Virus record (IMG/VR): IMGVR_UViG_3300045988_135716
Coordinates: 32,001 to 96,000 of that record
DNA from: a virus
DNA length: 64,000 nucleotides
Strand: one strand, 5' to 3'
Shown here piece by piece: positions 302 through 62,427 of the stretch (position 1 is the stretch's first letter; each line of letters opens with the position of its first letter). The position numbers and the translations under genes are program-made. The notes beneath the pieces are model-generated. The model made no database searches, had not been told where the DNA came from, and was given only the letters and a program-made list of their open reading frames with translations.

Positions 302-1462
302 TTATTTCACATCCTTACCTGTTAATTCTCCAAATGAATCTACATTATATACTTCTAGCATCTTTAAAATAGCCCATTCAATTTCTTGTTCATATCCTTC
401 TTTATTAAGTACATAGATATTTGGAACATTTTGTGGTGGCTTTTTAGGATCTGGTTGTATACTACCTACTTCTCTTTTTATCAAAAGAGGTTTTTGGTTT
501 TCACTAGAAGAAGTTAAACATTGAATACATTGATTTAATGTATCTTTTGAAATTGCCAATTCTTTTGCCATACTTTCCATGCTGCGAAAAAATGCTTCTG
601 GTTTAGATTTAGGATTACTTATTGTTTCTTCATTATTTTTATTTTTTGGACGAATAAAAATATAAGAATTGATGTAAAGGAATGCCATTAATATATTCTC
701 TTTGTTAATACTTGATTCACTCATCATTATGAAGTCAAGTTGCGAAGATGTAATTTTTGAAAATTTATCTGTTGCGTCAAAATTCTCTGGTATAATATCC
801 ATTTGAATACATTCATTATATCCAACACTATGAATATCAAAATCAGAAGTAATATTAATCATGTTACTTTCATGTAAAAACAATAAACATTTGATTATTT
901 CAAAAAATATTTTAGGTTTGTGTTTTGTTTGCTTATATTTACATAAATTGAATATCTCTGAAATCACAATATATGATTGATCTTCATAACTTCTATGTTT
1001 ATCAATTAAGATATATATAAGATAAAAAATTCTATGTAAATGATATTTCTTTTTAATGTCTACCTGAATAAAGCTATTTGGAACTCTGGCAAAATATTCT
1101 TTGTGTTTATTCTCAACATATGGATTGTTTATTGGAACAATATCATCAAAATCAAATTGAAACGCTATACCCAAATTAAAATTAGAATTATTATATCCTT
1201 TCAATACTGAATCATATTTTGATATATAAAACTTCTCTAAAGTTCTTGCTTCTTTGTAACTGATATTTTCTTTTATAATTTCATGTGAAAATCCATCATT
1301 CCATCCATATTTCTGAATATCTTTATAAAATTTTTTGTTTTCTCTATATCCATTACCATTACTCCATCTTTCTTTTTCTGCTTGTTGAGTAATCCCAATA
1401 TATTTTTTTCCATTAACTAAATTTGTATGTATATATACTTTGTAATTGTTTATAATATTCAC
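302..1462 (-). CDS. GIY-YIG-type nuclease (homing-endonuclease-like) with long unassigned C-terminal domain
   Basis: N-terminal ~90 aa follow the GIY-YIG layout (VYIHTNLVNGKKYIGIT...R...FSHEII...EARTLEKFYI...YN). Confidence 0.65.
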   Translation of the reverse strand: MNIINNYKVYIHTNLVNGKKYIGITQQAEKERWSNGNGYRENKKFYKDIQKYGWNDGFSHEIIKENISYKEARTLEKFYISKYDSVLKGYNNSNFNLGIAFQFDFDDIVPINNPYVENKHKEYFARVPNSFIQVDIKKKYHLHRIFYLIYILIDKHRSYEDQSYIVISEIFNLCKYKQTKHKPKIFFEIIKCLLFLHESNMINITSDFDIHSVGYNECIQMDIIPENFDATDKFSKITSSQLDFIMMSESSINKENILMAFLYINSYIFIRPKNKNNEETISNPKSKPEAFFRSMESMAKELAISKDTLNQCIQCLTSSSENQKPLLIKREVGSIQPDPKKPPQNVPNIYVLNKEGYEQEIEWAILKMLEVYNVDSFGELTGKDVK

Positions 1463-3545: not shown

Positions 3546-6212
3546 TTGTGTAATCTCCTTTTTATTTTAATGATTTTTGATAATTATTATTTCTCTCTTT
3601 GCGGATTGAAATATTTAGTTTGCATGTTACTGGTTGTAGATTCTCTATTTGAAACAAAGATGATCTATTTTTGCTGGTGAAAATTTGAGGTTAGGTGGGA
3701 TATGAGAGTAGTGATTTTTGTGAATGTAAAAGTACCCCCACTTATCTTTCTATCTAATATTCTCTATTTGAGATTCTGCTTGAGATATTTGTTGTAGATT
3801 ATATGATGTAGATTTAATTTGAAAATTGTAACGTGCAAATGCTAAGTTGCTCAAGTGATGGTATTTGTGATGTTTATTCTAAGTTGTACATTAGAATAGT
3901 GAGCATAGAATTGATTTTAGAGTTGTAGATGATATGTGATTGATATGAAATTGAAATGATTGTATCTTGAAGTGTAACTTTAGCATTTCAAGATTTTTTA
4001 TAATGTATTTTTGAGTAAATTTTTGTGATTAGAATTGTGTGAAAGTTTGACACAATTTAGAGAGGTATTTCCTGATGATGTGAGATTATGGACTTCGAGA
4101 TAGGTGTTTTGGGTGATAATTTTGATTGAGATGGGAGAGTGATGTGTACTTTTAATAGGAAATGATTGCTGCGTTTTAGGTAGATGTGGCAAGGGAATAT
4201 GGGATATTGCAGGATGATAAAATTAAATTAAGTTTATGATCTTGAGATATATAATTAGGTATCACTTCGAGAAGACTTCGTAAATTGTTAGATTTTGCAA
4301 GGGATATTGTGATTTGGAGTAGGTAATTTTGGGTGAAAATTGGTGATTTAGAATTGTCAGAAAATTTATTTTGCGTTGATATGCAAGGGTGCGGTCGAAC
4401 TCAGTCTCGAACTCATTTTGATTATTTTGGTGAATTGTGTGTAGGTTTAGTGCAATTTGTGAGGTGGTATGAGGGTGAGAAATTTTTTGTTGCTGGTGGT
4501 GAGTGTAGAGTGATGGATTACCAGTTTTGATTTTTGGACGAGTAGTGTGAGTTGAACTCATCAGTGGATATGACAATATCATATTAAAATTACAAATGTA
4601 AACTATCCCCGTCCTACTGGTATACATTATAAAACAGGATCATAAAATCGGATTAAAATAGTGTAATATGCAATTCCCGAAAAGCCTTGCTATTGTTGAA
4701 TAAAACTAACTTTTGCACTTTTGTGGGAAGTGTAAAAAAGTCAAGTTTTGTTATTATTTGACATTTTTACTCCGGTCAAAAACATGGGGGTGGTACAGGA
4801 TATAAAAGTTAGTATGATAAAACTAAAATTTTATCGGGTATTCTGGATATGAGATCACGGGACGGTAGACTTTAATTGTATAGACAATTATAAATATTAT
4901 TATAGTATACTCGAAAAAAGGAAAAGTGAGAAAATGAAAGAAAACAAGAGAAAATGAGCGAAAAAACGTGAATAAATGACTATCGGTCAATTCTGTTCGT
5001 TATGTTGGATTTCCAACAAAAAATTTGATTACAAGATTGTAACACAAAATCATAACACAAACTTATATCACCACTTGCACCACAAAAACGTAACAAAATA
5101 GACTAATACACTCCACTTTATACCCAAAAACAGCGGTAAAAATGGGATAGCGCACCACTACAAAATAATACATAAATGTAACACAAAAATTGTATCACAC
5201 TCATATAACACAAAAATCTGGACGAAATAAAACCATCTGGACGCACAACAGTAGACTCTACCAGATAGCAAGATCACACCCCAAACCATCCCCCAAAATA
5301 CAATATAAAATCATATTAACATAACACAATATACTCATACAATAACATCAAATAACCATACATAAACTCACAATAATATACAATATAATATACATTATAT
5401 ATCACATAATACATCACATATAACTTACAATATACATCTATCTATATTCAACTATATACCTACAATATACCACATAATATTACTATTATAATACCTCTGA
5501 TATATCATACAATATACTACAATACATACTCATACAATCAACCATAATGCCACATAATATAACGCATAATATACTCACACTAACCACACCACATTATACA
5601 ATCTGCATCCTATAAAACCATTGCAAATACTACATTCTAACACCATCCAGGGATTAAAATATAACATCAGATCACGATAAAATTATCTTAAAACAGGACG
5701 CAAAACACCACATAAAAACAGATAAAATTATACTCCAAACAAGATAAAAACCACACGCCAAACAGATAAAAATACCTCACATTTCAATCATAAATCAGAC
5801 AAAATACTCACACTTTACCGCAATATTTTACCCATTCGCACACAAAAAACAACGCTATTCTATACAAAATTTTGCATAAAAATACATCAATCAAACTGTA
5901 TAAATATACAATATTCTTGCATAAAATAGCGCACATTTTGACGTAAAAATACACCTAAAAACATATTAAAATGATACAAAAATATCATCATGCTGCACGT
6001 TTCAAACAGTCCAGATATACGATTGTAAATATATCATACTTACAAAATGACCTTGTAAAACGCTCTATAAACGACTTTAAGCGCATAACCCTATATAATT
6101 ATCATATCTAATATAAAAGCCCTTAAAACGTCAAATACACGCTTATAAGGCTATCTGTACATTTTGAACATGATAACAATAGGTTGTTTGTGTTACTTCC
6201 TATTATATGTGG
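3546..6212. other. 2.7-kb ORF-free region with mirrored strand composition (C-poor arm ~3600-4560, mixed core ~4620-4990, G-poor arm ~5040-6000)
   Basis: Hand counts: 69 C in 3601-4560 (about 7%); 56 G in 5041-6000 (about 6%); no G at all 5273-5498; only low-complexity ORFs. Confidence 0.8.
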
Positions 6213-6692
6213 CTAATACAACTGTTTTATCTTTGACAACATAGTATCTATATAACTATCTAATTCATTGTAATTTCTTCCATACCATAATAAATGTGCA
6301 ACAAAATCTATTTCTATATCTGCACATCTTCCGTTATTTAAGGCGTTGTATATATCTTCTTTATTGACTCTATATCTTCCATTTGATAACTTTTGATTAT
6401 ACTGTATATTATTATATCTAAGCATATCTAAACATCTTGACACGTTACCAGATACAATAAAAAATTTATATATTATATCTGTTATGCTGTCAGTGTCAGT
6501 TATAAATAAACATTTCCTTATTATATGGCGTATATACTCTATAAATAAATCATCATATAAATAATGTATATTTCCATTATCAAACAACTTTAAAGCATCA
6601 TAATAGTTTATGTCTCTTAAATGTTCTATGTGCTCTTTTGTTATTTTATCGTCTATCATATATTTATTTATAACCTTTTCTGTCAAGATCAT
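6213..6692 (-). CDS. hypothetical protein (downstream partner of RHH gene)
   Basis: 159-aa ORF overlapping the upstream RHH gene by 29 nt; no family recognised. Confidence 0.5.
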   Translation of the reverse strand: MILTEKVINKYMIDDKITKEHIEHLRDINYYDALKLFDNGNIHYLYDDLFIEYIRHIIRKCLFITDTDSITDIIYKFFIVSGNVSRCLDMLRYNNIQYNQKLSNGRYRVNKEDIYNALNNGRCADIEIDFVAHLLWYGRNYNELDSYIDTMLSKIKQLY

Positions 6693-6852
6693 CCTGTATT
6701 AGCTTCTTGATATATACGCTCATTGGTATGTTATTATCTTTTGCATACCGTTTCATTCTTGCACATTCTTCCGTTTCTTCTGGTGTATATTTAAGTTTTA
6801 CAACTGTACATCTATCATTATAATCTTTTTGTGATTTTGGGCTATATGCCAT
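6664..6852 (-). CDS. ribbon-helix-helix (CopG/Arc-like) DNA-binding protein
   Basis: 62 aa; beta-strand then two helices pattern (CTVVKLKYTPEETEECARMKRYAKDNNIPMSVYIKKLI); paralog of 26390-26575; sits next to palindromic operators. Confidence 0.6.
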   Translation of the reverse strand: MAYSPKSQKDYNDRCTVVKLKYTPEETEECARMKRYAKDNNIPMSVYIKKLIQDDLDRKGYK

Positions 6853-6924
6853 AATTCTTACACCTTTCTTTATTTATTATATGTAATAATTCTCTTTTTC
6901 TTTTTGGTGTAAGAGTAGTATTAC

Positions 6925-6953
6925 ATATTAACATTATAGCTTTATCCTGTCAA
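6925..6953 (-). promoter_or_regulatory. candidate leftward sigma-A-type promoter
   Basis: Minus strand TTGACA (6953-6948), 17 nt, TAATAT (6930-6925), upstream of RHH gene. Confidence 0.45.
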
Positions 6954-6985
6954 CTTTTCTATTGACATTTGTGTATATTGTACTA

Positions 6986-7075
6986 ATAGGGTACCCTATG
7001 CAAATATGTAAATTATACACAATTCACAAACATAAAAAATCATAGGGTAACCTATTGACTAATAGGGTACCCTAT
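6986..7075. promoter_or_regulatory. three copies of a 14-bp palindromic operator ATAGGGTACCCTAT
   Basis: Perfect copies at 6986-6999 and 7062-7075; one-mismatch copy at 7042-7055; located between divergent promoters. Confidence 0.7.
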
Positions 7076-7083
7076 GGTATAGT
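7055..7083 (+). promoter_or_regulatory. candidate rightward sigma-A-type promoter
   Basis: TTGACT (7055-7060), 17 nt (spacer is the operator copy), TATAGT (7078-7083). Confidence 0.6.
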
Positions 7084-7158
7084 AATACCATCAACAGAGG
7101 GGCAGAGATAAAATCAAAGTTCTAAAGTTGATAAAACTAAATAAAGGAGGTGACTCCA

Positions 7159-7266
7159 ATGACATATCCAATCGGATATCGTGGTCACTGTTTTCTTGCA
7201 ATAGTCAATGGCAAGTTGATGCAATTTGCAAGTGATACAGAATACTACGAATACATAACGGATTAA
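7159..7266 (+). CDS. 35-aa micro-ORF (MTYPIGYRGHCFLAIVNGKLMQFASDTEYYEYITD)
   Basis: AAAGGAGG 7 nt upstream of ATG; first ORF after rightward promoter. Confidence 0.5.
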   Translation: MTYPIGYRGHCFLAIVNGKLMQFASDTEYYEYITD

Positions 7267-8046
7267 TCATTGATGAGGGCATAGCCACAAGGCTTATAAG
7301 TCCCTCAAAATCACTTCCTTAAATGGTATTATACCATATTTAGTTTTTAACTACAAGTTAATCTAATAAGTCCCAAACAAGATTGAAACGGGCACACACT
7401 GAACCTTGCAGTTGAATAAAGGGTTGACTACTCGACAGCGAAAACTGTTATATGAGAGTCCTGGGTATCTGCCTCGAAAGAGATATTAGCGCATTCTGAA
7501 TTGCTGAAAGTATAGTAACAAAATCAGACGTTTGTAGAAAAGGTTTTTAACGTGAAAAAACTTGACCGTCAATGTGATCAACAGGGAATCACACAAAAAT
7601 AATAAGTTAGGGACGGGATAATAAATCAGAATTTAGTTTTACATAAAAGCAACTTATTAACAATAACATACTTGTAATAAGTGGCAAGTTACTTTTTTAC
7701 GGAATATCTAAAGCAACAAAAAATGGAGTCAAAACCATTTCAAAAAAAGAATGTGATGACCAAACTAAATAGTGGACGGTTTGTCTGGTATGAGTACCAC
7801 TTTAAAAGATAGGAAATCAGTCAAAAGCATGAGACAGCTTAATCATTCAAAAAATACGGTTGTCCGTATCCGATCAAAAAACGGGGAAAGATGCAAAACA
7901 AAGACCTAAGATTTGTTTAGACTGAAATAGTTTACTTGTTATCTATCAATGATACATAAAAATAAGTCGTTATCATAAAACGTTAAAAGCGTTCTGATTT
8001 ACGAAAAATCATTGCAAGCGGTTAATCATTAATCACTTGCTTTTTT
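7267..8046 (+). ncRNA. candidate large structured non-coding RNA / long structured 3' UTR
   Basis: About 780 nt with no credible ORF in any frame in an otherwise gap-free genome; visibly higher GC than flanks; many local hairpins (7274-7307, 7435-7448, 7473-7482 CTC-GAAA-GAG, 7652-7682, 7854-7869); ends at a terminator. Confidence 0.4.
8014..8046 (+). terminator. rho-independent terminator
   Basis: GCAAG...CTTGC stem with inner TTAAT/ATTAA pairing followed by TTTTTT. Confidence 0.55.
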
Positions 8047-8224
8047 GTTTTACTTAGGTTGCAAGGCATTATCAACAAGCAAAGTTATTTGAAAGACGGG
8101 CAAAAGCGTAAGACCCGTGGCGGTGAGTAGTAGTCAAGTATAAATAATTTCTAATGTTGAATTATAATGGCTTGCAAAAATGAGAACAAAAAGAGAATAC
8201 ATAAACATACAGGAGGGAAATACG

Positions 8225-8551
8225 ATGACAACATATGTAGACGTAATTGCAAGAAAAGATACTATCACAATTGATGGTTATACATCAAACAAAACAGAAC
8301 GTGGCATTATTAAAGATGTTGCAAGAGTAGTTTCAAAATACGATCAGAGTGAAGCCAACACTCTTCTTGATTACTTAAAAATGGGGTTGAACAAGTACAA
8401 TACTCCATTTGCTAAAGCATCTGAAAGTGAAGGCGGTTATTTCTTTGAATATGAAGAAGTGCCATGTGCTACAAGATACAATGAAGAAACTGACGAGATG
8501 AAATATAAAGAAGGTTATTACAACTACTTTTGTATTAGAATTGTTAAATAA
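8225..8551 (+). CDS. hypothetical protein
   Basis: ORF; AGGAGGG SD before ATG 8225 (upstream in-frame ATG 8180 has no SD). Confidence 0.5.
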   Translation: MTTYVDVIARKDTITIDGYTSNKTERGIIKDVARVVSKYDQSEANTLLDYLKMGLNKYNTPFAKASESEGGYFFEYEEVPCATRYNEETDEMKYKEGYYNYFCIRIVK

Positions 8552-8568: not shown

Positions 8569-8772
8569 ATGCCAAAAGTTAAAATTACAGCTCATACATA
8601 TGTATGTGAGTTGCCCGAAACAATTCAGTCACAGATTTTCCAGGAGTGTGAAGCTACATTTAAAAGCCTTGCATTTCCTGTAGATATCAATGAGCAACTT
8701 GAAAACGTAAAAGGTTGCAAGATGTGTGATCTTGAAGATACGATAAACGTACAGAAATATTACACAAAATGA
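8569..8772 (+). CDS. hypothetical protein
   Basis: ORF with AGGAGG SD; plus-strand gene train. Confidence 0.5.
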   Translation: MPKVKITAHTYVCELPETIQSQIFQECEATFKSLAFPVDINEQLENVKGCKMCDLEDTINVQKYYTK

Positions 8773-28313: not shown

Positions 28314-29363
28314 ATGTTACAGATTTTAGGCAAAACAGATAAGTTAAGAGATGAATGGACGGTTAGAAAGATTGTAAATAATTATAAAAGTGGTGTTAGC
28401 GTATTTGATAATGCGGTTCAGAGAGGACTTGTCTGGAAGAATGATAAGAAATCAAGACTTATTCGTTCTACTATTCTTAATAGACCAATTCCTCCTATTT
28501 ACGCTTCAAAACATGATGAGATTTATAATAATCTGGATGGAAAACAGAGAAGTTATACATATGTGGAGTTCCTTAATGATGAATTTTCGTTAGAAGGACT
28601 TGATCCCGTCACTGTTAAGAATACAGAAACAGGTGAAATTGAGGATGTGGAATTGAATGGTAAGTGTTTTTCAGAGTTGCCGGAGGAATTACAGAACGCT
28701 ATCACGGATGCAACTTTAACTGTCATTATAATTAACAATGTGACAGAAGATGAAGAATGTGAGATTTTTTATGACATTAATAATGGACAGCCATTAAATG
28801 CTATTACCATTGCAAGAGCAACAGCAAAATCACGTAAAGATATTACTCAGTTGGGACTGCATAAATTATTCCAGAATGCTTTAACTAAGAAAGCATTAGA
28901 GAAATATACAAATGAGGATATTGTTGTTAAGAGTTGGGCTATTTTGCATCAGGAAAATCCATCTCTGGAATCAAAGAATATTAAAAAATTAATGTCAGAA
29001 GTAGAATTAACAGGGGATGATATGATTCAACTTGAAAAATGCTTCGATAGAGTTCTGGCTACATATAACGCCATTGATGATAGAAAGATAGCAAAAAGGA
29101 TTTTAACCAGAACACATATGATTAGTATTATGCGAGTTGTATGGAAATCTATTGAATGTGGGAAATCAGAGGAAGAATTTGCAAATTGGTTTACAAAGTT
29201 TTATTGTGGTAAACAATCTCCTACAAAAGACGAAGTGTATAACAGTTTATGTAGAGCAGGAACTAATAGAACATCTGCGGTATGTAAGAGACTTGAAATT
29301 CTTGAGAATAACTATAATAAATTTTTCAACATATCATCAACAAGTGAAAAGGAGAACGATTAA
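28314..29363 (+). CDS. DUF262-family (ParB/GmrS-like NTPase fold) protein, no nuclease domain seen
   Basis: NAVQRGLVWKNDKKSRLIRSTILNRPIPPIY...LDGKQRS; no DUF1524/HNH motif in C-terminus. Confidence 0.65.
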   Translation: MLQILGKTDKLRDEWTVRKIVNNYKSGVSVFDNAVQRGLVWKNDKKSRLIRSTILNRPIPPIYASKHDEIYNNLDGKQRSYTYVEFLNDEFSLEGLDPVTVKNTETGEIEDVELNGKCFSELPEELQNAITDATLTVIIINNVTEDEECEIFYDINNGQPLNAITIARATAKSRKDITQLGLHKLFQNALTKKALEKYTNEDIVVKSWAILHQENPSLESKNIKKLMSEVELTGDDMIQLEKCFDRVLATYNAIDDRKIAKRILTRTHMISIMRVVWKSIECGKSEEEFANWFTKFYCGKQSPTKDEVYNSLCRAGTNRTSAVCKRLEILENNYNKFFNISSTSEKEND

Positions 29364-40010: not shown

Positions 40011-40288
40011 CTCAAATTTACAAGAACCTTATAAATTATGAAATGTACGTATGTACATACGTTGTCAACTAAAAATAGAATAAGTGATACATAAGTTGAA
40101 CTACATTATTATAAGAGAATATGTTATTGTGTCGCTCTAGCAATAATTATATCGTGAAAAGCTAAACATCCATTACATAATTCTGTAAAACACTCTTAAT
40201 GGAAGTGCTTGAACATCAAAGACTTATAATAATATTTTCGAAGAGCATTACCAGTTTTATACTGAGATTATATTTAAGGACAAAGAAA
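40011..40288 (+). ncRNA. anti-repeat plus omega-RNA/tracrRNA-like scaffold leader of the IscB gene
   Basis: 40024-40037 GAACCTTATAAATT is the perfect complement of 39991-40004 in R3; ~250 nt ORF-free, contains 16-nt palindrome 40047-40062; abuts SD/ATG of IscB. Confidence 0.55.
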
Positions 40289-41842
40289 ATGAATTACTTA
40301 GATTTTGCATTTGTAATAGATAAAAATAATAATCCTTGTATGCCTATTTATGAAGGATATGCAGGTAAATTATTGAGAAGTAAAAAAGCAGTTATTGTAA
40401 ATCATGATCCATTAGTTGTACAAAGACACGATGAATATAATGCAGATTTAGAGTTTAGAGATAGAATTACATTAAAAGTAGATACTGGATATGAAAATAT
40501 AGGATTTTCAGTCAGTGATAGTAAACATGAATATTTATCAGGTCAAGTTAAATTGCTTAATGGAATATCTAAGAGGTTATTGGCTAGAAAAGAACATAGA
40601 GGTTGTCGTAGACAAAGATTAAGATATAGAAAAAACAAAGCCATAGACTATAAAACAGTTAATAATCCAACATATAAAAATGGGAATCAAGATGGTTGGT
40701 TAGCACCTTCAATTTTACATAGAATTAATTCGCATTTGAGATTAGTTGATAAAATTGCTTCTTGGATTCCAATTGATAAAGTGATTATTGAAACTGCGAA
40801 CTTTGATATACAGAAAATAAAAGCTATATTAAACGACAAAGAAATTGAAGGAGTCGAATATCAGTTAGGAGAAATGTATGGATTTGAAAATGTTAAACAG
40901 TATGTAAGAGAACGAGACAATTATACTTGTCAAATATGCGAAGCTGGACAAGATAAAGATAAGAAAAATGTTCCTATAGAAGTACATCATATTATTCCAC
41001 GTTCAAAAGGAGGTTCTAATAAGCCAGATAATTTAATTTCGTTATGTAAAACCTGTCATAAAAAAGTTCATATGAATAATAATGACAATGATTTATTTAG
41101 AAAATTGCAACATGATGGAGTGAAAAATACATACAAAGATGCTTCATTTATGAACATCATGAGATGGACGCTATATAATCAGTTAAAAGAAAAATATGAC
41201 GTATCTATATCATATGGTTATATAACAAAATTAAATAGACGAATGGCAAATCTGAAAAAGTACCATTATATTGATGCGTTGTGCATTTCAGATTATCATG
41301 AAATTACACTTACTAAAAATATTTATTTAGTTGAACAAAAACGATGTAATGATAGATGTATGGAATCGTTTTTTGATGCCAAATATATTGATAGTAGAGA
41401 TAATAAAATAAAGGAAGGAACTGAATTATGTAAAGTCAGAAAATCATATGCATCGAGAAGATCTACAAGAAAAGAAGATATTGAAAACAATCGTATTTTT
41501 AGAAAAGAAAAAGTTGAAAAAGGAAGAAGACAATATAGATGTCATTCATATTGTTTAAAAGCAGGAGATTTAGTATATATAAATTATGGAAAACATAAAG
41601 GCAAAATAGCAGAATTTTCAACAATGAAAAAAACTCCAACTGGTTCATATCAAATAAAATTTATTTATGATGGACAAGAATGTAAATGTCCATCAATATC
41701 TATCAAACCAGAAGAGTATATTCAATTAACAACAAATCAATGTGACAAAGTAAAAATTGTACGTACTCGTAGAGGTATGATTTGGCGAAAAACTGATAGA
41801 TTAGAATATGAGTCAAACACACCTGAACAGTATAGACCTTAA
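40289..41842 (+). CDS. iscB: IscB-family RNA-guided nuclease (PLMP-RuvC-bridge helix-HNH-RuvC), 517 aa
   Basis: FVIDKNNNPCMPI (PLMP-like); KVDTG (RuvC-I); RGCRRQRLRYRKN (bridge helix); IIETANFD (RuvC-II); CQIC...HHIIPRSKGGSNKPDNLISLCKTCH (HNH); HYIDA (RuvC-III); AAGGA SD 8 nt before ATG 40289. Confidence 0.85.
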   Translation: MNYLDFAFVIDKNNNPCMPIYEGYAGKLLRSKKAVIVNHDPLVVQRHDEYNADLEFRDRITLKVDTGYENIGFSVSDSKHEYLSGQVKLLNGISKRLLARKEHRGCRRQRLRYRKNKAIDYKTVNNPTYKNGNQDGWLAPSILHRINSHLRLVDKIASWIPIDKVIIETANFDIQKIKAILNDKEIEGVEYQLGEMYGFENVKQYVRERDNYTCQICEAGQDKDKKNVPIEVHHIIPRSKGGSNKPDNLISLCKTCHKKVHMNNNDNDLFRKLQHDGVKNTYKDASFMNIMRWTLYNQLKEKYDVSISYGYITKLNRRMANLKKYHYIDALCISDYHEITLTKNIYLVEQKRCNDRCMESFFDAKYIDSRDNKIKEGTELCKVRKSYASRRSTRKEDIENNRIFRKEKVEKGRRQYRCHSYCLKAGDLVYINYGKHKGKIAEFSTMKKTPTGSYQIKFIYDGQECKCPSISIKPEEYIQLTTNQCDKVKIVRTRRGMIWRKTDRLEYESNTPEQYRP

Positions 41843-61326: not shown

Positions 61327-62427
61327 ATGAAAGACATTAAGATTGTAATTGGAGCAAATTTTGGGGATGAAGGAAAGGGCTTGATGACAGATTATTTTTC
61401 GCAAAAATCCAATAGCATTGTTGTGTGTTCAAATGGTGGAGCGCAAAGAGGACATACTGTAACAACGCCAACTGCAATTAGACATGTCTTTCATCATTTT
61501 GGATCAGGTACATTTAATAACGCAAGTACATATTTATCTGAGGATTTTATTCTTAATCCAATTATTTTTAAACAAGAATATGATGAGTTAGTAAAACTTA
61601 ATCATAATCCAAATGTATATATTAATCAAAATTGCATGATAACAACTCCATTTGATATGATAGCTAATCAAATCGTTGAGGAAAGCCGTGGTAAAAATAA
61701 ACATGGTAGTTGTGGATTAGGGGTTTTTGAGACAATTAAAAGATATAGAGCTGGTGTAACTGATTTAGATTACAATATTAAAGAATACTATTTGGAACAA
61801 CTTAAAAAGGAGGACATTGAATTATCAGGCGAATGGTTGAAAATCTTTTTTGATAATGGTATATTTGAACATTTCTTAGAAGACTTGGATTTTATGAATA
61901 GCCATTCATTGTGTATTTCAGATGAATATTTCTTAAATCAGTATGACAATATTATTTTTGAAGCAGCACAAGGGCTTTTACTTGATCAAAATAATATTGA
62001 TTATTTTCCACATCTTACCCCATCTAACACTGGAATTAAAAATCCCAAGAAAATAATTGAAAATATTGAATGGAATGATGATATAAATATTGAAACTTGT
62101 TATGCATCTCGTACTTATTTAACAAGACATGGCGCAGGGAAATTTCCATCAGAATGCAATAAAAATTTTATTAACGAATATATGTATGATAAAACAAATG
62201 TTCCAAATCCTTTTCAAGATAGATTAAGATATGGATATCTTAATCTAAGAGAACTATATAATAGATGTTCTGATGATATTGGAGATTTTGGAAACACAAA
62301 ATCAATTGCAATTACCCATTGTAACGAATATGACAAATGGGATAATGATTTGCTTATAAATTTATTTAATGATTGGAATATTTATTATTCTGATGGAGAA
62401 ACCCGAAATGATGTAGATTTAAGATAA
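61327..62427 (+). CDS. adenylosuccinate-synthetase-family (PurA/PurZ-like) enzyme, short divergent form
   Basis: IVIGANFGDEGKGLMTD (P-loop GDEGKG with catalytic Asp) and NGGAQRGHTV (GHT His); 366 aa, shorter than bacterial PurA. Confidence 0.6.
   Translation: MKDIKIVIGANFGDEGKGLMTDYFSQKSNSIVVCSNGGAQRGHTVTTPTAIRHVFHHFGSGTFNNASTYLSEDFILNPIIFKQEYDELVKLNHNPNVYINQNCMITTPFDMIANQIVEESRGKNKHGSCGLGVFETIKRYRAGVTDLDYNIKEYYLEQLKKEDIELSGEWLKIFFDNGIFEHFLEDLDFMNSHSLCISDEYFLNQYDNIIFEAAQGLLLDQNNIDYFPHLTPSNTGIKNPKKIIENIEWNDDINIETCYASRTYLTRHGAGKFPSECNKNFINEYMYDKTNVPNPFQDRLRYGYLNLRELYNRCSDDIGDFGNTKSIAITHCNEYDKWDNDLLINLFNDWNIYYSDGETRNDVDLR

What the first reader, a model, noticed from the sequence alone, without database searches (positions are those of the whole stretch)
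7267..8179. About 0.8-0.9 kb ORF-free, hairpin-dense tract after the rightward promoter and a micro-ORF: candidate large ornate ncRNA
**Seen**
- Intergenic gaps in this genome are usually under 40 nt, yet 7267-8179 has no credible ORF in any frame.
- Its GC content is visibly higher than the flanks (about 40% versus about 30% by eye).
- It contains many compact hairpins, some with GNRA-like or small loops: 7274-7307, 7435-7448 (ACAG-CGAAAA-CTGT), 7473-7482 (CTC-GAAA-GAG), 7652-7682 (8-bp stem), 7854-7869 (ATACGG-TTGT-CCGTAT) and 8096-8118.
- A U-tract terminator sits at 8014-8046.
- The tract lies downstream of a good promoter (7055-7083) and a 35-codon ORF.

**Established**
- Very large structured RNAs such as ROOL, GOLLD and HEARO are enriched in phages and prophages of Firmicutes.

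**Inference**
- This could be a member of such a class, or a new one, rather than a simple UTR. I cannot recall their consensus sequences well enough to assign a class.
Basis: partly seen in the sequence, partly recalled or inferred. Interest (0 to 1): 0.65.

Follow-up and report, generated by a model that had tools for sequence, protein, structure and literature searches.

The report
Modular non-coding early leader RNA
The 0.9 kb gap is a real protein-free stretch transcribed from the main early promoter of an uncultured ~170 kb gut phage; it is a patchwork of small RNA hairpin modules ending in a conserved terminator and a long RNA duplex, and it is neither a known nor a single large "ornate" RNA.

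Summary
**Observation: mostly confirmed.**
- 7267-8224 has no credible ORF, and neither does the equivalent region in 33 distinct related leaders from independent assemblies.
- GC is 33.6% against 30.3% for the window, not 40% against 30%.
- Hairpin density and folding energy are barely above chance.

**Interpretation: partly supported.**
- No Rfam family matches (ROOL, GOLLD, HEARO, OLE and raiA included).
- No common core fold exists. Between an invariant transcription start and an invariant 3' end, relatives carry 440-1141 nt leaders of at least 15 mosaic types.
- Several helices keep pairing through compensatory changes, with G·U pairs on the + strand. These are 7783-7789/7816-7822, 7825-7828/7837-7840, 7573-7578/7588-7593 and 8059-8069/8167-8177. 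This points to selection on the RNA.
- Every leader type ends in an intrinsic terminator.
- After the terminator comes a conserved composite duplex: U-tract with purine box, plus an 11-14 bp helix. It sits just before the first gene's ribosome-binding site.

**Best reading:** a modular, cis-acting early leader or long non-coding RNA with attenuation and an RNase III-type processing site. This is inferred, not shown.

**Novelty:** a new variant of a known kind, of moderate interest.

The parts
6987..7074 (.). Three 12-bp palindromic operators TAGGGTACCCTA (6987-6998, 7043-7054 with 1 mismatch, 7063-7074). They flank and overlap the -35 of the rightward promoter.
   Evidence: 3 sites in 64 kb against 0.55 expected, all of them here. 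Relatives carry different palindromes at the same positions.
7055..7101 (+). Early rightward promoter: TTGACT, 17 nt, TGgTATAGT (7055-7083). The initial transcribed sequence is invariant; the start near 7090 is inferred.
   Evidence: The 24-mer at 7078-7101 is exact in 19 IMG/VR stretches, and its 21-mer core is exact in 37 metagenome stretches.
7159..7266 (+). Micro-ORF (35 codons plus stop) with SD AAAGGAGG at 7144-7151. It is a real small gene, present in only some leader types.
   Evidence: L026 keeps it with conservative replacements. A related 50-aa ORF occurs in the L021, L031, L043 and L063 leaders.
7267..7712 (+). Leader module set M1, a chain of local hairpins:
- 7275-7279/7302-7306
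- 7323-7328/7332-7337
- 7402-7407/7420-7425
- 7426-7433/7454-7460, enclosing 7435-7438/7445-7448
- 7473-7475/7480-7482
- 7542-7548/7556-7562
- 7573-7578/7588-7593
- 7652-7659/7675-7682
   Evidence: Found only in W-type leaders that are 90-99% identical. Compensatory changes occur at 7576/7590 and 7578/7588 (loop CAACARGGA kept), at one pair of 7426-7433/7454-7460, and at 7495/7528. In L019 and L021 the inner hairpin is swapped while the outer helix is kept.
7710..7888 (+). Structured domain (model R1):
- Hairpin 7723-7726/7735-7738 with loop AGUCAAAA
- GUGAU 7753-7757 / AUCAU 7842-7846
- Helix P3 7783-7789/7816-7822
- Possible pseudoknot partner AGUGG 7771-7775 / CCACU 7797-7801
- Hairpin 7825-7828/7837-7840
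- CGG 7857-7859 / CCG 7870-7872
   Evidence: 98.6% of cells are paired against 21-42% when the partner is slid. Five pairs show changes on both sides, 4 of the 7 in P3. The stem of the AGUCAAAA hairpin is AUGG/CCAU here and CUGAC/GUCAG in L001, L027, L028 and L032.
7889..8012 (+). Leader module M3, made of A-rich linkers and small hairpins (for example AAACAAA 7895-7901 / TTTGTTT 7911-7917).
   Evidence: 80-85% identical in the L003 group, L050, L040/L068, L031 and L063/L071. No covariation test was done.
8014..8051 (+). Intrinsic terminator: GCAAG/CTTGC plus GGTTAA/TTAATC stem, then UUUUUUGUUUU.
   Evidence: Leader types have four different stems, but a hairpin is always followed by the same T-tract. 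Local z-score is -2.5.
8041..8193 (+). Composite long duplex:
- U-tract 8041-8051 pairs with the purine box 8183-8193.
- P-helix 8059-8072 pairs with 8164-8177.
- The interior (8073-8163, including hairpin 8096-8100/8114-8118) is variable and dispensable.
   Evidence: RNAalifold finds the P-helix. It is 94.8% paired, and 3 of 11 pairs are doubly changed in the L022 type. The U:A helix is 92.6% paired, and the box varies only between A and G opposite U. The same architecture is the MFE in four divergent types, and the interior is only 11 nt in L026. Local z-score is -3.3.
8172..8224 (+). Invariant box TTGCAAAAATGARARCAAAAAGAGAA followed by the SD AGGAGG (8211-8216) of the first early gene (ATG 8225).
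   Evidence: Unique in the window. Conserved in all 21 distinct 3' regions, whichever gene follows.

Best explanation
7267-8224 is the untranslated, modular leader of the repressor-controlled early rightward transcription unit of an uncultured ~170 kb gut phage.

**Shown**
- A sigma-70-type promoter with an extended -10 and three flanking palindromic operators sits upstream.
- The start region is identical in more than 50 related contigs.
- In every relative, 0.44-1.14 kb without a long ORF follows.
- This stretch is a mosaic of exchangeable modules: small hairpins, some with conserved loops and compensating stems, plus optional micro-ORFs.
- Every type ends with a hairpin plus U6GU4 terminator.
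- After the terminator comes a conserved composite duplex, directly upstream of the ribosome-binding site of whichever gene comes first.

**Inferred**
- Most transcripts stop at the terminator, giving an RNA of about 0.95 kb (7090 to about 8050).
- Read-through transcripts fold the U-tract:purine-box plus P-helix duplex (about 25 bp or more).
- A double-strand-specific RNase (RNase III type) cuts this duplex. That detaches the leader and leaves a purine-rich 5' end next to the SD, which stabilises the early mRNA.
- The interior modules are accessory RNA elements, such as protein-binding or regulatory hairpins, that recombine freely.
For: - **Non-coding:** shown in the window and in 33 distinct relatives.
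- **Promoter and operators:**
- **Mosaic make-up, invariant ends:**
- **RNA-level constraint on the + strand:**
  - Domain 7710-7888 has 5 pairs changed on both sides, is 98.6% paired, and has invariant G·U pairs.
  - Hairpin 7573-7593 has two compensated pairs.
  - The P-helix has 3 compensated pairs plus U·G and G·U variants.
  - The purine box varies only A/G opposite U.
- **Terminator:** function is kept with four different stems.
- **Duplex architecture:** the same composite duplex is the MFE in four divergent types.
- **No promoter after the terminator:** no sigma-70-like promoter lies between terminator and gene in this clade. More distant relatives have TTGACA, 17 nt, TGATAATAT directly upstream of the homologous gene.
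- **Structured RNA in relatives' leaders:** the S-module has 8 of 19 pairs compensated.
- **Precedents:**
  - The SP82 polypurine 5' stabiliser, Hue et al. 1995 (cited in PMC7509114).
  - Abundant 0.6-1.2 kb early lncRNAs in staphylococcal phage K (PMC9241854).
Against: - There are no expression data. Transcript ends, terminator efficiency and cleavage are all inferred.
- Covariation rests on few independent events: 6 sequences for the 7710-7888 domain and one lineage for the P-helix. The alignment was also fitted to the structure.
- Position 8 of the P-helix is a G·G or A·G mismatch in 12 of 21 sequences.
- Pairing of a U-run with an A-run scores high even when slid (52-66%).
- The central 7340-7940 is no more stable than shuffled sequence.
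- 7264-7400 is invariant among the relatives that have it, so nothing can be said about structure there.
- The P-helix arms contain the palindrome TTGCAA, so a DNA-binding protein is not fully excluded.
- No antiterminator or RNase partner is identified, and the host is unknown.
Confidence: 0.5

Rival explanations
1. A stand-alone large ornate structured RNA. The whole 0.8-0.9 kb would fold into one conserved, complex architecture with its own function, like ROOL, GOLLD, HEARO or OLE.
For: - It is long and ORF-free, lies behind a strong promoter and ends at a terminator.
- Some helices covary.
- A possible pseudoknot lies at 7771-7822.
- GNRA-type loops are present.
Against: - No Rfam hit appears, even at permissive thresholds.
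- No common core exists. Relatives with the same promoter and 3' end have leaders of 440-1141 nt built from different modules, and L026 lacks nearly all of 7267-8012.
- Long-range pairs predicted by RNAalifold in 7267-7700 have no covariation support.
- The global z-score is only -1.5.
Confidence: 0.1
2. RNA cargo for host takeover or anti-defence. The interchangeable modules would be independent decoy, sponge or aptamer RNAs, or binding sites for host or phage proteins. They would be expressed first after infection and diversify under an arms race.
For: - The position immediately after the earliest promoter fits.
- Mosaicism is extreme while the flanks are invariant.
- Hairpins have conserved loops and covarying stems: AGUCAAAA, CAGAGUCAAUAAGNCC (two copies), CAACARGGA and AUGNGACA.
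- AATAAGT is enriched, 4 copies against 0.2 expected.
- The S-module in relatives is a well-supported independent motif.
Against: - No target is known.
- There is no similarity to CRISPR repeats (best E 1.5) and there are no ToxI-like tandem repeats.
- The enrichment statistics were chosen post hoc.
- The modules could equally be cis-regulatory.
Confidence: 0.15
3. A replication origin with a transcript acting as primer or activator.
For: - The tract lies at the divergence point of leftward and rightward genes, at the minimum of cumulative GC skew.
- It is an untranslated transcript from an early promoter.
Against: - The skew switch is confounded with the direction of transcription.
- There are no iterons or tandem repeats in the tract.
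- The interior is not conserved among relatives.
- A better ori or terminus candidate lies at 4991-6212: ORF-free, with tandem repeats, extreme strand asymmetry, and assembly breaks in relatives.
Confidence: 0.08
4. A functionless spacer: recombination scars and decayed small early genes with their leftover intergenic hairpins. Only the promoter, the terminator and the region next to the ribosome-binding site would be functional.
For: - The make-up is mosaic.
- Small ORFs are intact in some relatives and absent in others.
- Thermodynamic stability is ordinary and hairpin density is near chance.
Against: - Compensatory substitutions keep several stems while their loops stay conserved.
- Hairpins are replaced by different hairpins at the same site.
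- A leader of at least 440 nt is kept in all 42 complete relatives.
- No frame conservation is detectable.
Confidence: 0.15

Closest known systems
Phage lambda pR'-6S RNA-tR' unit (Q antitermination) and similar promoter-leader-terminator units
   Same: A constitutive or early promoter, an invariant initial transcribed region, a non-coding leader ended by an intrinsic terminator, and the operon proper lying behind the terminator.
   Different: The leader here is 5-6 times longer and modular. No Q-like gene or binding element was identified, and the operon behind it looks early rather than late. The resemblance is recalled from memory, not tested.
B. subtilis phage SP82/SPO1 early mRNA RNase III sites and the SP82 polypurine 5' stabiliser (Panganiban & Whiteley 1983; Hue et al. 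1995; cited in PMC4838370 and PMC7509114)
   Same: A Firmicutes-type phage (strong SD, extended -10). A long imperfect duplex in early RNA is followed by a purine-rich stretch next to an SD.
   Different: There is no sequence similarity, and cleavage is not shown. Here one strand of the duplex is the terminator's own U-tract.
Staphylococcal phage K (Kayvirus) lnc001/lnc002 (PMC9241854)
   Same: Non-coding RNAs of 0.6-1.2 kb in intergenic regions of a large Firmicutes phage. One has its own early promoter and the highest read count. Function is unknown.
   Different: No detectable sequence similarity: blastn of 7000-8300 against 50,697 phage records finds only the uncultured relative MT835469. 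The phage K RNAs lie near tRNA genes, and there are none here.
ROOL, GOLLD, HEARO, OLE and raiA large structured RNAs (Rfam)
   Same: Length class, association with phages or prophages of Firmicutes, and absence of ORFs.
   Different: No match to any of their covariance models. There is no conserved multi-helix core, no adjacent tRNAs, and the make-up is mosaic.
Phage P4 / P1-P7 RNA-based immunity leaders (CI / C4 RNAs)
   Same: A long untranslated leader behind an early promoter. It has internally complementary short repeats (AAACTAAATA twice, TATTTAGTTTT twice) and premature termination.
   Different: The complementary motifs are not consistently kept in relatives, and no processed small RNA is defined. 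The comparison rests on memory only.

Membership tests
ROOL (RF03087) / GOLLD (RF01998) / HEARO / OLE / raiA | Match to the family covariance model at or above the Rfam gathering score | tested here: not met
   No hit in the window at gathering score. None of these families appears among the matches at E up to 10 in 6900-8300. None appears in 13 + 8 related loci.
ROOL / GOLLD | Usual genomic setting next to tRNA genes in prophages | tested here: not met
   ARAGORN finds no tRNA in the 64 kb window.
Large ornate RNA (generic) | A conserved multi-helix core shared by all homologues, supported by covariation | tested here: not met
   Leaders with the same promoter and 3' end share only the ends, and there are 15 mosaic types. 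Covariation is confined to local helices.
Intrinsic (Rho-independent) terminator | G+C-containing hairpin directly followed by a U-tract on the transcribed strand | tested here: met
   8014-8040 has an 11-bp stem with a 1x1 internal loop, followed by U6GU4 at 8041-8051. Four different stems occur in relatives with the same tract. The simple scanner did not list it.
Intrinsic (Rho-independent) terminator | Transcripts end there in vivo | not testable with these tools
   No RNA data are available.
RNase III-type processing site | About two turns of mostly continuous double-stranded RNA | tested here: inconclusive
   The predicted composite duplex has 11 bp (U-tract:box), 14 bp (P-helix) and inner helices, interrupted by small internal loops. 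It is the MFE in four divergent types, and the P-helix covaries. Cleavage cannot be tested.
Type III toxin-antitoxin (ToxI-like RNA array before a terminator and toxin gene) | Tandem direct repeats of the antitoxin RNA unit | tested here: not met
   Tandem Repeats Finder finds none in 7267-8170. The repeat finder gives only scattered 10-23 nt two-copy matches.
Riboswitch / T-box / known cis-regulatory leader | Match to a described aptamer model | tested here: not met
   The best matches are DUF805 RNA at 21.8 bits (gathering score 51.1, E 0.37) and SAM-II at 15.4 bits (E 9.4).
Protein-coding gene(s) missed through sequencing error | An ORF restored in independent assemblies, or a reading frame conserved across relatives | tested here: not met
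   In 33 distinct leaders the + strand maximum is 63 aa. Homopolymer length differs inside the candidate ORF.

The most novel reading that the evidence does not exclude
These gut phages carry a dedicated 'RNA cassette slot' between an invariant early promoter and an invariant terminator and processing site. Unrelated structured RNA modules are shuffled into it by recombination: the 7710-7888 pseudoknot-like domain, conserved-loop hairpins, and the ~130 nt S-module of relatives. These modules would act in trans as the first products of infection, for example as decoys or sponges for host defence or RNA-binding proteins. That would be an RNA counterpart of the variable anti-defence gene islands of other phages.
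Probability: 0.15. Interest if true: 0.8.

Novelty: new variant of a known kind. Interest (0 to 1): 0.5.

Why it matters
Untranslated early leaders and phage lncRNAs are known, but almost none has an assigned mechanism. This one offers three things.
- **A well-delimited system.** The transcription start is invariant, the terminator is conserved, and the predicted processing duplex uses the terminator's own U-tract.
- **Undescribed RNA motifs with covariation support.** These are the 7710-7888 domain, the P-helix element, and the S-module in relatives.
- **A natural experiment.** At least 15 leader variants differ in which interior modules are present.

If the interior modules act in trans, this would be an RNA-based accessory locus. 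If not, it is still a clean model for attenuation plus RNase processing at the entry to an early operon in an uncultured gut phage lineage.

Tried and rejected
- **Rfam:** searched at gathering and permissive thresholds on the window and 21 related loci. Nothing was found. The DUF805 and SAM-II hits are far below threshold.
- **Phage database:** blastn of 7000-8300 against 50,697 phage records finds only the unannotated relative MT835469.
- **Species-representative genomes:** a scan with the 3' box gave one chance hit in a high-GC MAG, so there is no prophage or host clue.
- **AGUCAAAA hairpin in IMG/VR:** a scan with a 17-mer from this hairpin gave mostly chance coding matches. Only L080 and L086 are related.
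- **S-module in the window:** searched with model R2 and absent.
- **Sigma-70 promoter between terminator and gene:** none is conserved. TTGCAA at 8172 has no conserved -10, and TATAAA at 8140 is not conserved.
- **The invariant box as a repeated phage-specific promoter:** it is unique in 64 kb.
- **CsrA-type GGA-loop sponge:** only one convincing hairpin (7573-7593), and my rough hand count of GGA in the tract was near the number expected from its base composition.
- **tRNA, tmRNA and tandem arrays:** none.
- **Antiterminator pairing 7743-7757 with 8032-8046 (I9):** not kept in leader types that have other terminators.
- **Pfam and PHROGs on the neighbouring small proteins:** no significant families. 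The 62-aa leftward protein has only a weak DUF6290 hit (E 0.026), so the ribbon-helix-helix repressor assignment stays tentative.
- **Hue et al. 1995 (PMC177050):** not held in the library.

Full report
**What the window is**

- The window is identical, apart from one A in a homopolymer, to IMG/VR contig UViG_3300045988_130013 (170.8 kb).
- Its only relative among deposited phage records is the unannotated human-faecal contig MT835469 (176 kb).
- Genes read leftward up to 6852 and rightward from 7159.
- Strong AGGAGG ribosome-binding sites and an extended -10 promoter suggest a Firmicutes-type host. The host remains unknown: no related sequence occurs in 185,579 species-representative genomes.

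**Checking the observation**

- The tract is truly ORF-free. The non-coding stretch runs to 8224, because the next gene starts at ATG 8225 behind AGGAGG (8211-8216). Its homologues start with the same MTTYV/MLAYV residues.
- Indel errors do not explain the gap.
  - I collected 42 complete homologous leaders (33 distinct) from IMG/VR and metagenome assemblies, using the invariant promoter string.
  - None has a + strand ORF above 63 aa.
  - The 29-codon ORF at 7723-7812 contains a poly-A run that varies from 6 to 8 A among relatives.
- Their number is not clearly above chance: 17 against 9.7 +/- 4.2, with 25 of 300 shuffles at least as high.
- The global MFE z-score is -1.5 on the + strand. Local z-scores are unremarkable except at the terminator (-2.5) and at 8060-8179 (-3.3).
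- GC is 33.6%, against 30.3% for the window and 33.6% for the adjacent genes. The claimed contrast of 40% against 30% is not there.

**Anatomy upstream**

- Three copies of the palindrome TAGGGTACCCTA (6987, 7043, 7063) are the only ones in 64 kb.
- They bracket TTGACT, 17 nt, TGgTATAGT (7055-7083).
- Relatives have different palindromes at the same places but an identical -10 and first ~20 transcribed bases. This is the pattern of a repressor-operator switch with diverged specificity.
- A 62-aa leftward protein (6664-6852) is a candidate ribbon-helix-helix repressor, but only weakly supported (DUF6290, E 0.026).
- The micro-ORF (7159-7266) is real but optional. L026 keeps it with conservative changes, other types carry a related 50-aa ORF, and others have none.

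**Comparative picture**

- Between the invariant start and an invariant ~200 nt 3' part, the leaders are 440-1141 nt long and fall into 15 types.
- Seen from the window, segments are shared as follows:

| Window segment | Where it recurs |
|---|---|
| 7117-7677 | Only in four near-identical types (90-99% identity) |
| 7700-7885 | In L050, L040/L068 and L021; an alternative module in L031/L043/L063/L071 and the L003 group |
| 7848-8012 | In about ten types, at 80-85% identity |
| 8012-8232 | In all types |

- L026 goes from a 5' structured module and the micro-ORF almost straight to the terminator.
- A single conserved large fold is therefore excluded.
- No Rfam family matches any leader type.

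**Evidence for RNA-level selection**

*(a) Domain 7710-7888*
- A covariance model built on six distinct sequences realigns them with 98.6% of cells paired, against 21-42% in slid controls. Five pairs are changed on both sides.
- Helix 7783-7789/7816-7822 has three different compensated versions. Hairpin 7825-7828/7837-7840 has A-U replaced by C-G.
- G·U pairs are invariant on the + strand.
- AGUGG 7771-7775 / CCACU 7797-7801 would make an H-type pseudoknot with that helix. It never varies, so it is untested.
- The hairpin with loop AGUCAAAA has stem AUGG/CCAU here and CUGAC/GUCAG in four other types.

*(b) Hairpin 7573-7578/7588-7593*
- It changes from UGUGAU/AUCACA to UGUAAG/CUUACA in four relatives, while the loop CAACARGGA is kept.

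*(c) Helix 7426-7433/7454-7460*
- It is kept while its inner hairpin is replaced by a different one in L019 and L021.

*(d) P-helix 8059-8069/8167-8177*
- RNAalifold finds it independently.
- In the L022 type, three positions change on both arms and pairing is kept. Single changes give G·U or U·G.
- Its interior ranges from 11 nt (L026) to about 100 nt. That argues for an RNA helix rather than two protein half-sites.

*(e) Relatives' leaders*
- They contain a ~130 nt S-module with 8 of 19 pairs compensated. It is absent from the window.

*Caveats*
- Sequences are few and the number of independent events is small.
- One alignment was fitted to its structure.
- 7264-7400 is invariant, so it is uninformative.

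**The conserved 3' part**

- Every type has a hairpin followed by T5-8GT4. The stems come in four unrelated versions, so termination itself is what is conserved.
- The U-tract (8041-8051) is complementary to the invariant purine box GAGAACAAAAAG (8182-8193).
- That box varies only between A and G at positions opposite U.
- In four divergent leader types the MFE structure is the same: terminator hairpin, then U-tract:box helix, then a small internal loop, then the P-helix and type-specific inner helices.
- The box is unique in the window, so it is not a reiterated phage promoter.
- No conserved sigma-70-like promoter lies between the terminator and the SD in this clade. More distant relatives have a canonical promoter directly upstream of the homologous gene.

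**Most likely mechanism** (inferred; confidence about 0.5 for the whole, higher for 'non-coding transcribed leader under RNA constraint')

- The early promoter fires once it is free of repressor.
- Most polymerases stop at 8041-8051, releasing a leader RNA of about 0.95 kb that includes the micro-ORF.
- Read-through RNA forms the long composite duplex, a typical substrate for RNase III.
- Cleavage would separate the leader from the mRNA and leave a purine-rich 5' end next to the SD.
- Precedents are the B. subtilis RNase III sites and the polypurine stabiliser of phage SP82 early RNA (cited in PMC4838370 and PMC7509114).
- The interior modules are exchangeable accessory RNA elements. Whether they act in cis (pausing, antitermination, coupling to mini-ORF translation) or in trans (binding host or phage factors) cannot be decided here.

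**Rivals**

| Rival | Confidence | Main weakness |
|---|---|---|
| Single ornate RNA | 0.1 | Contradicted by the mosaicism |
| RNA cargo or decoy modules | 0.15 | Attractive but untested |
| Transcript-primed origin | 0.08 | A better ori or terminus candidate lies at 4991-6212 |
| Functionless spacer or decayed genes | 0.15 | Contradicted by compensatory changes |

**Comparison with known systems**

- The tract works most like promoter-leader-terminator units such as lambda pR'-6S-tR', combined with SP82/T7-type RNase III processing of early RNA.
- By size and setting it resembles the uncharacterised early lncRNAs of phage K (PMC9241854).
- It is not a member of ROOL, GOLLD, HEARO, OLE or raiA, of ToxI-like arrays, or of any described riboswitch (see the membership table).

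**Verdict**

This is a real, conserved, non-coding early leader with several undescribed RNA structural elements. It is not a known or unitary ornate RNA, and its function is unproven.
- Novelty: new variant of a known kind.
- Interest: 0.5.

Noticed in passing
window 4991-6212 (best read on the - strand): A second ORF-free tract of 1.2 kb, left of the switch region.
- On the - strand it is T/G-rich and low in complexity, with GC skew down to -0.87.
- It holds tandem repeats of 21-23 nt (5321-5385, 5716-5772) and 12 nt (5373-5434).
- It is a candidate replication origin or genome terminus.
   Followed up: partly
L006, L007, L008, L010, L011, L013 (contig ends); L012 4690-4860: In a more distant clade, six independent contigs end 210-290 nt upstream of the homologue of the 8225 gene. 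The breaks fall inside an A/T-rich TATA-type repeat tract, and that gene has its own TTGACA, 17 nt, TGATAATAT promoter there.
   Followed up: partly
L003 4194-4344, L026 3772-3916(-), L039 1082-1210, L043 5057-5185(-), L063 2722-2850(-): The S-module is an undescribed structured RNA of about 130 nt at the 5' end of some relatives' leaders.
- It has a hairpin, a long-range closing helix in three fully different complementary versions, and variable GNRA-capped hairpins.
- 8 of 19 pairs are compensated.
- It has no Rfam hit and is absent from the window.
   Followed up: yes
window 61327-62427 (+): This protein matches PHROG 1211 (E 6e-62) and Pfam adenylosuccinate synthetase. I read PHROG 1211 as the PurZ-type family; that reading was not checked. 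If correct, the phage may replace adenine with 2-aminoadenine in its DNA.
   Followed up: no
L005 8137-8206 (+): A type II hammerhead ribozyme hit just above gathering score (38.5 bits against 37) in a related phage contig.
   Followed up: no
window 6987-7074 versus L003 and L001 (alignment A1): The operator palindromes differ between relatives (TAGGGTACCCTA, TAGGTAAAACCTA, TAAGTGATACTTA), while the -10 and the first ~20 transcribed bases are identical. This suggests several immunity or repressor specificities on one promoter scaffold.
   Followed up: partly
L001, L027, L028, L032 leaders (e.g. L001 locus 6380-6440): Mini-ORFs of 8-10 codons with strong SDs (MIVNDNFH*, MIVQNNFP*, duplicated in L028). 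The stop codon lies in the 5' arm of the AGUCAAAA-loop hairpin, so translation could control that hairpin.
   Followed up: no
window 7134-7143, 7337-7347, 7631-7641, 7762-7771: Two copies of AAACTAAATA, one directly 5' of the micro-ORF SD, and two copies of the perfectly complementary TATTTAGTTTT. These could be long-range pairing, or chance in A/T-rich sequence. They are not consistently kept in relatives.
   Followed up: partly
L086 (IMGVR_UViG_3300045988_149537), about 1300 in the locus: A variant in which the AGUCAAAA hairpin region is joined directly to the middle of the 67-aa gene (homologue of window 8569-8772). It loses the terminator and the duplex, and is either a natural deletion or an assembly chimera.
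   Followed up: no
window 7743-7749: The otherwise identical IMG/VR contig (L002) has A8 where the window has A7. This is homopolymer-length noise or variation between assemblies of the same phage.
   Followed up: yes
window 302-1462 (-), 28314-29363 (+), 40199-41842 (+): A GIY-YIG homing-endonuclease-like protein, a GmrSD_N-domain protein and an RRXRR/HNH endonuclease. These are mobile or defence-related genes scattered in the early and replication region.
   Followed up: no
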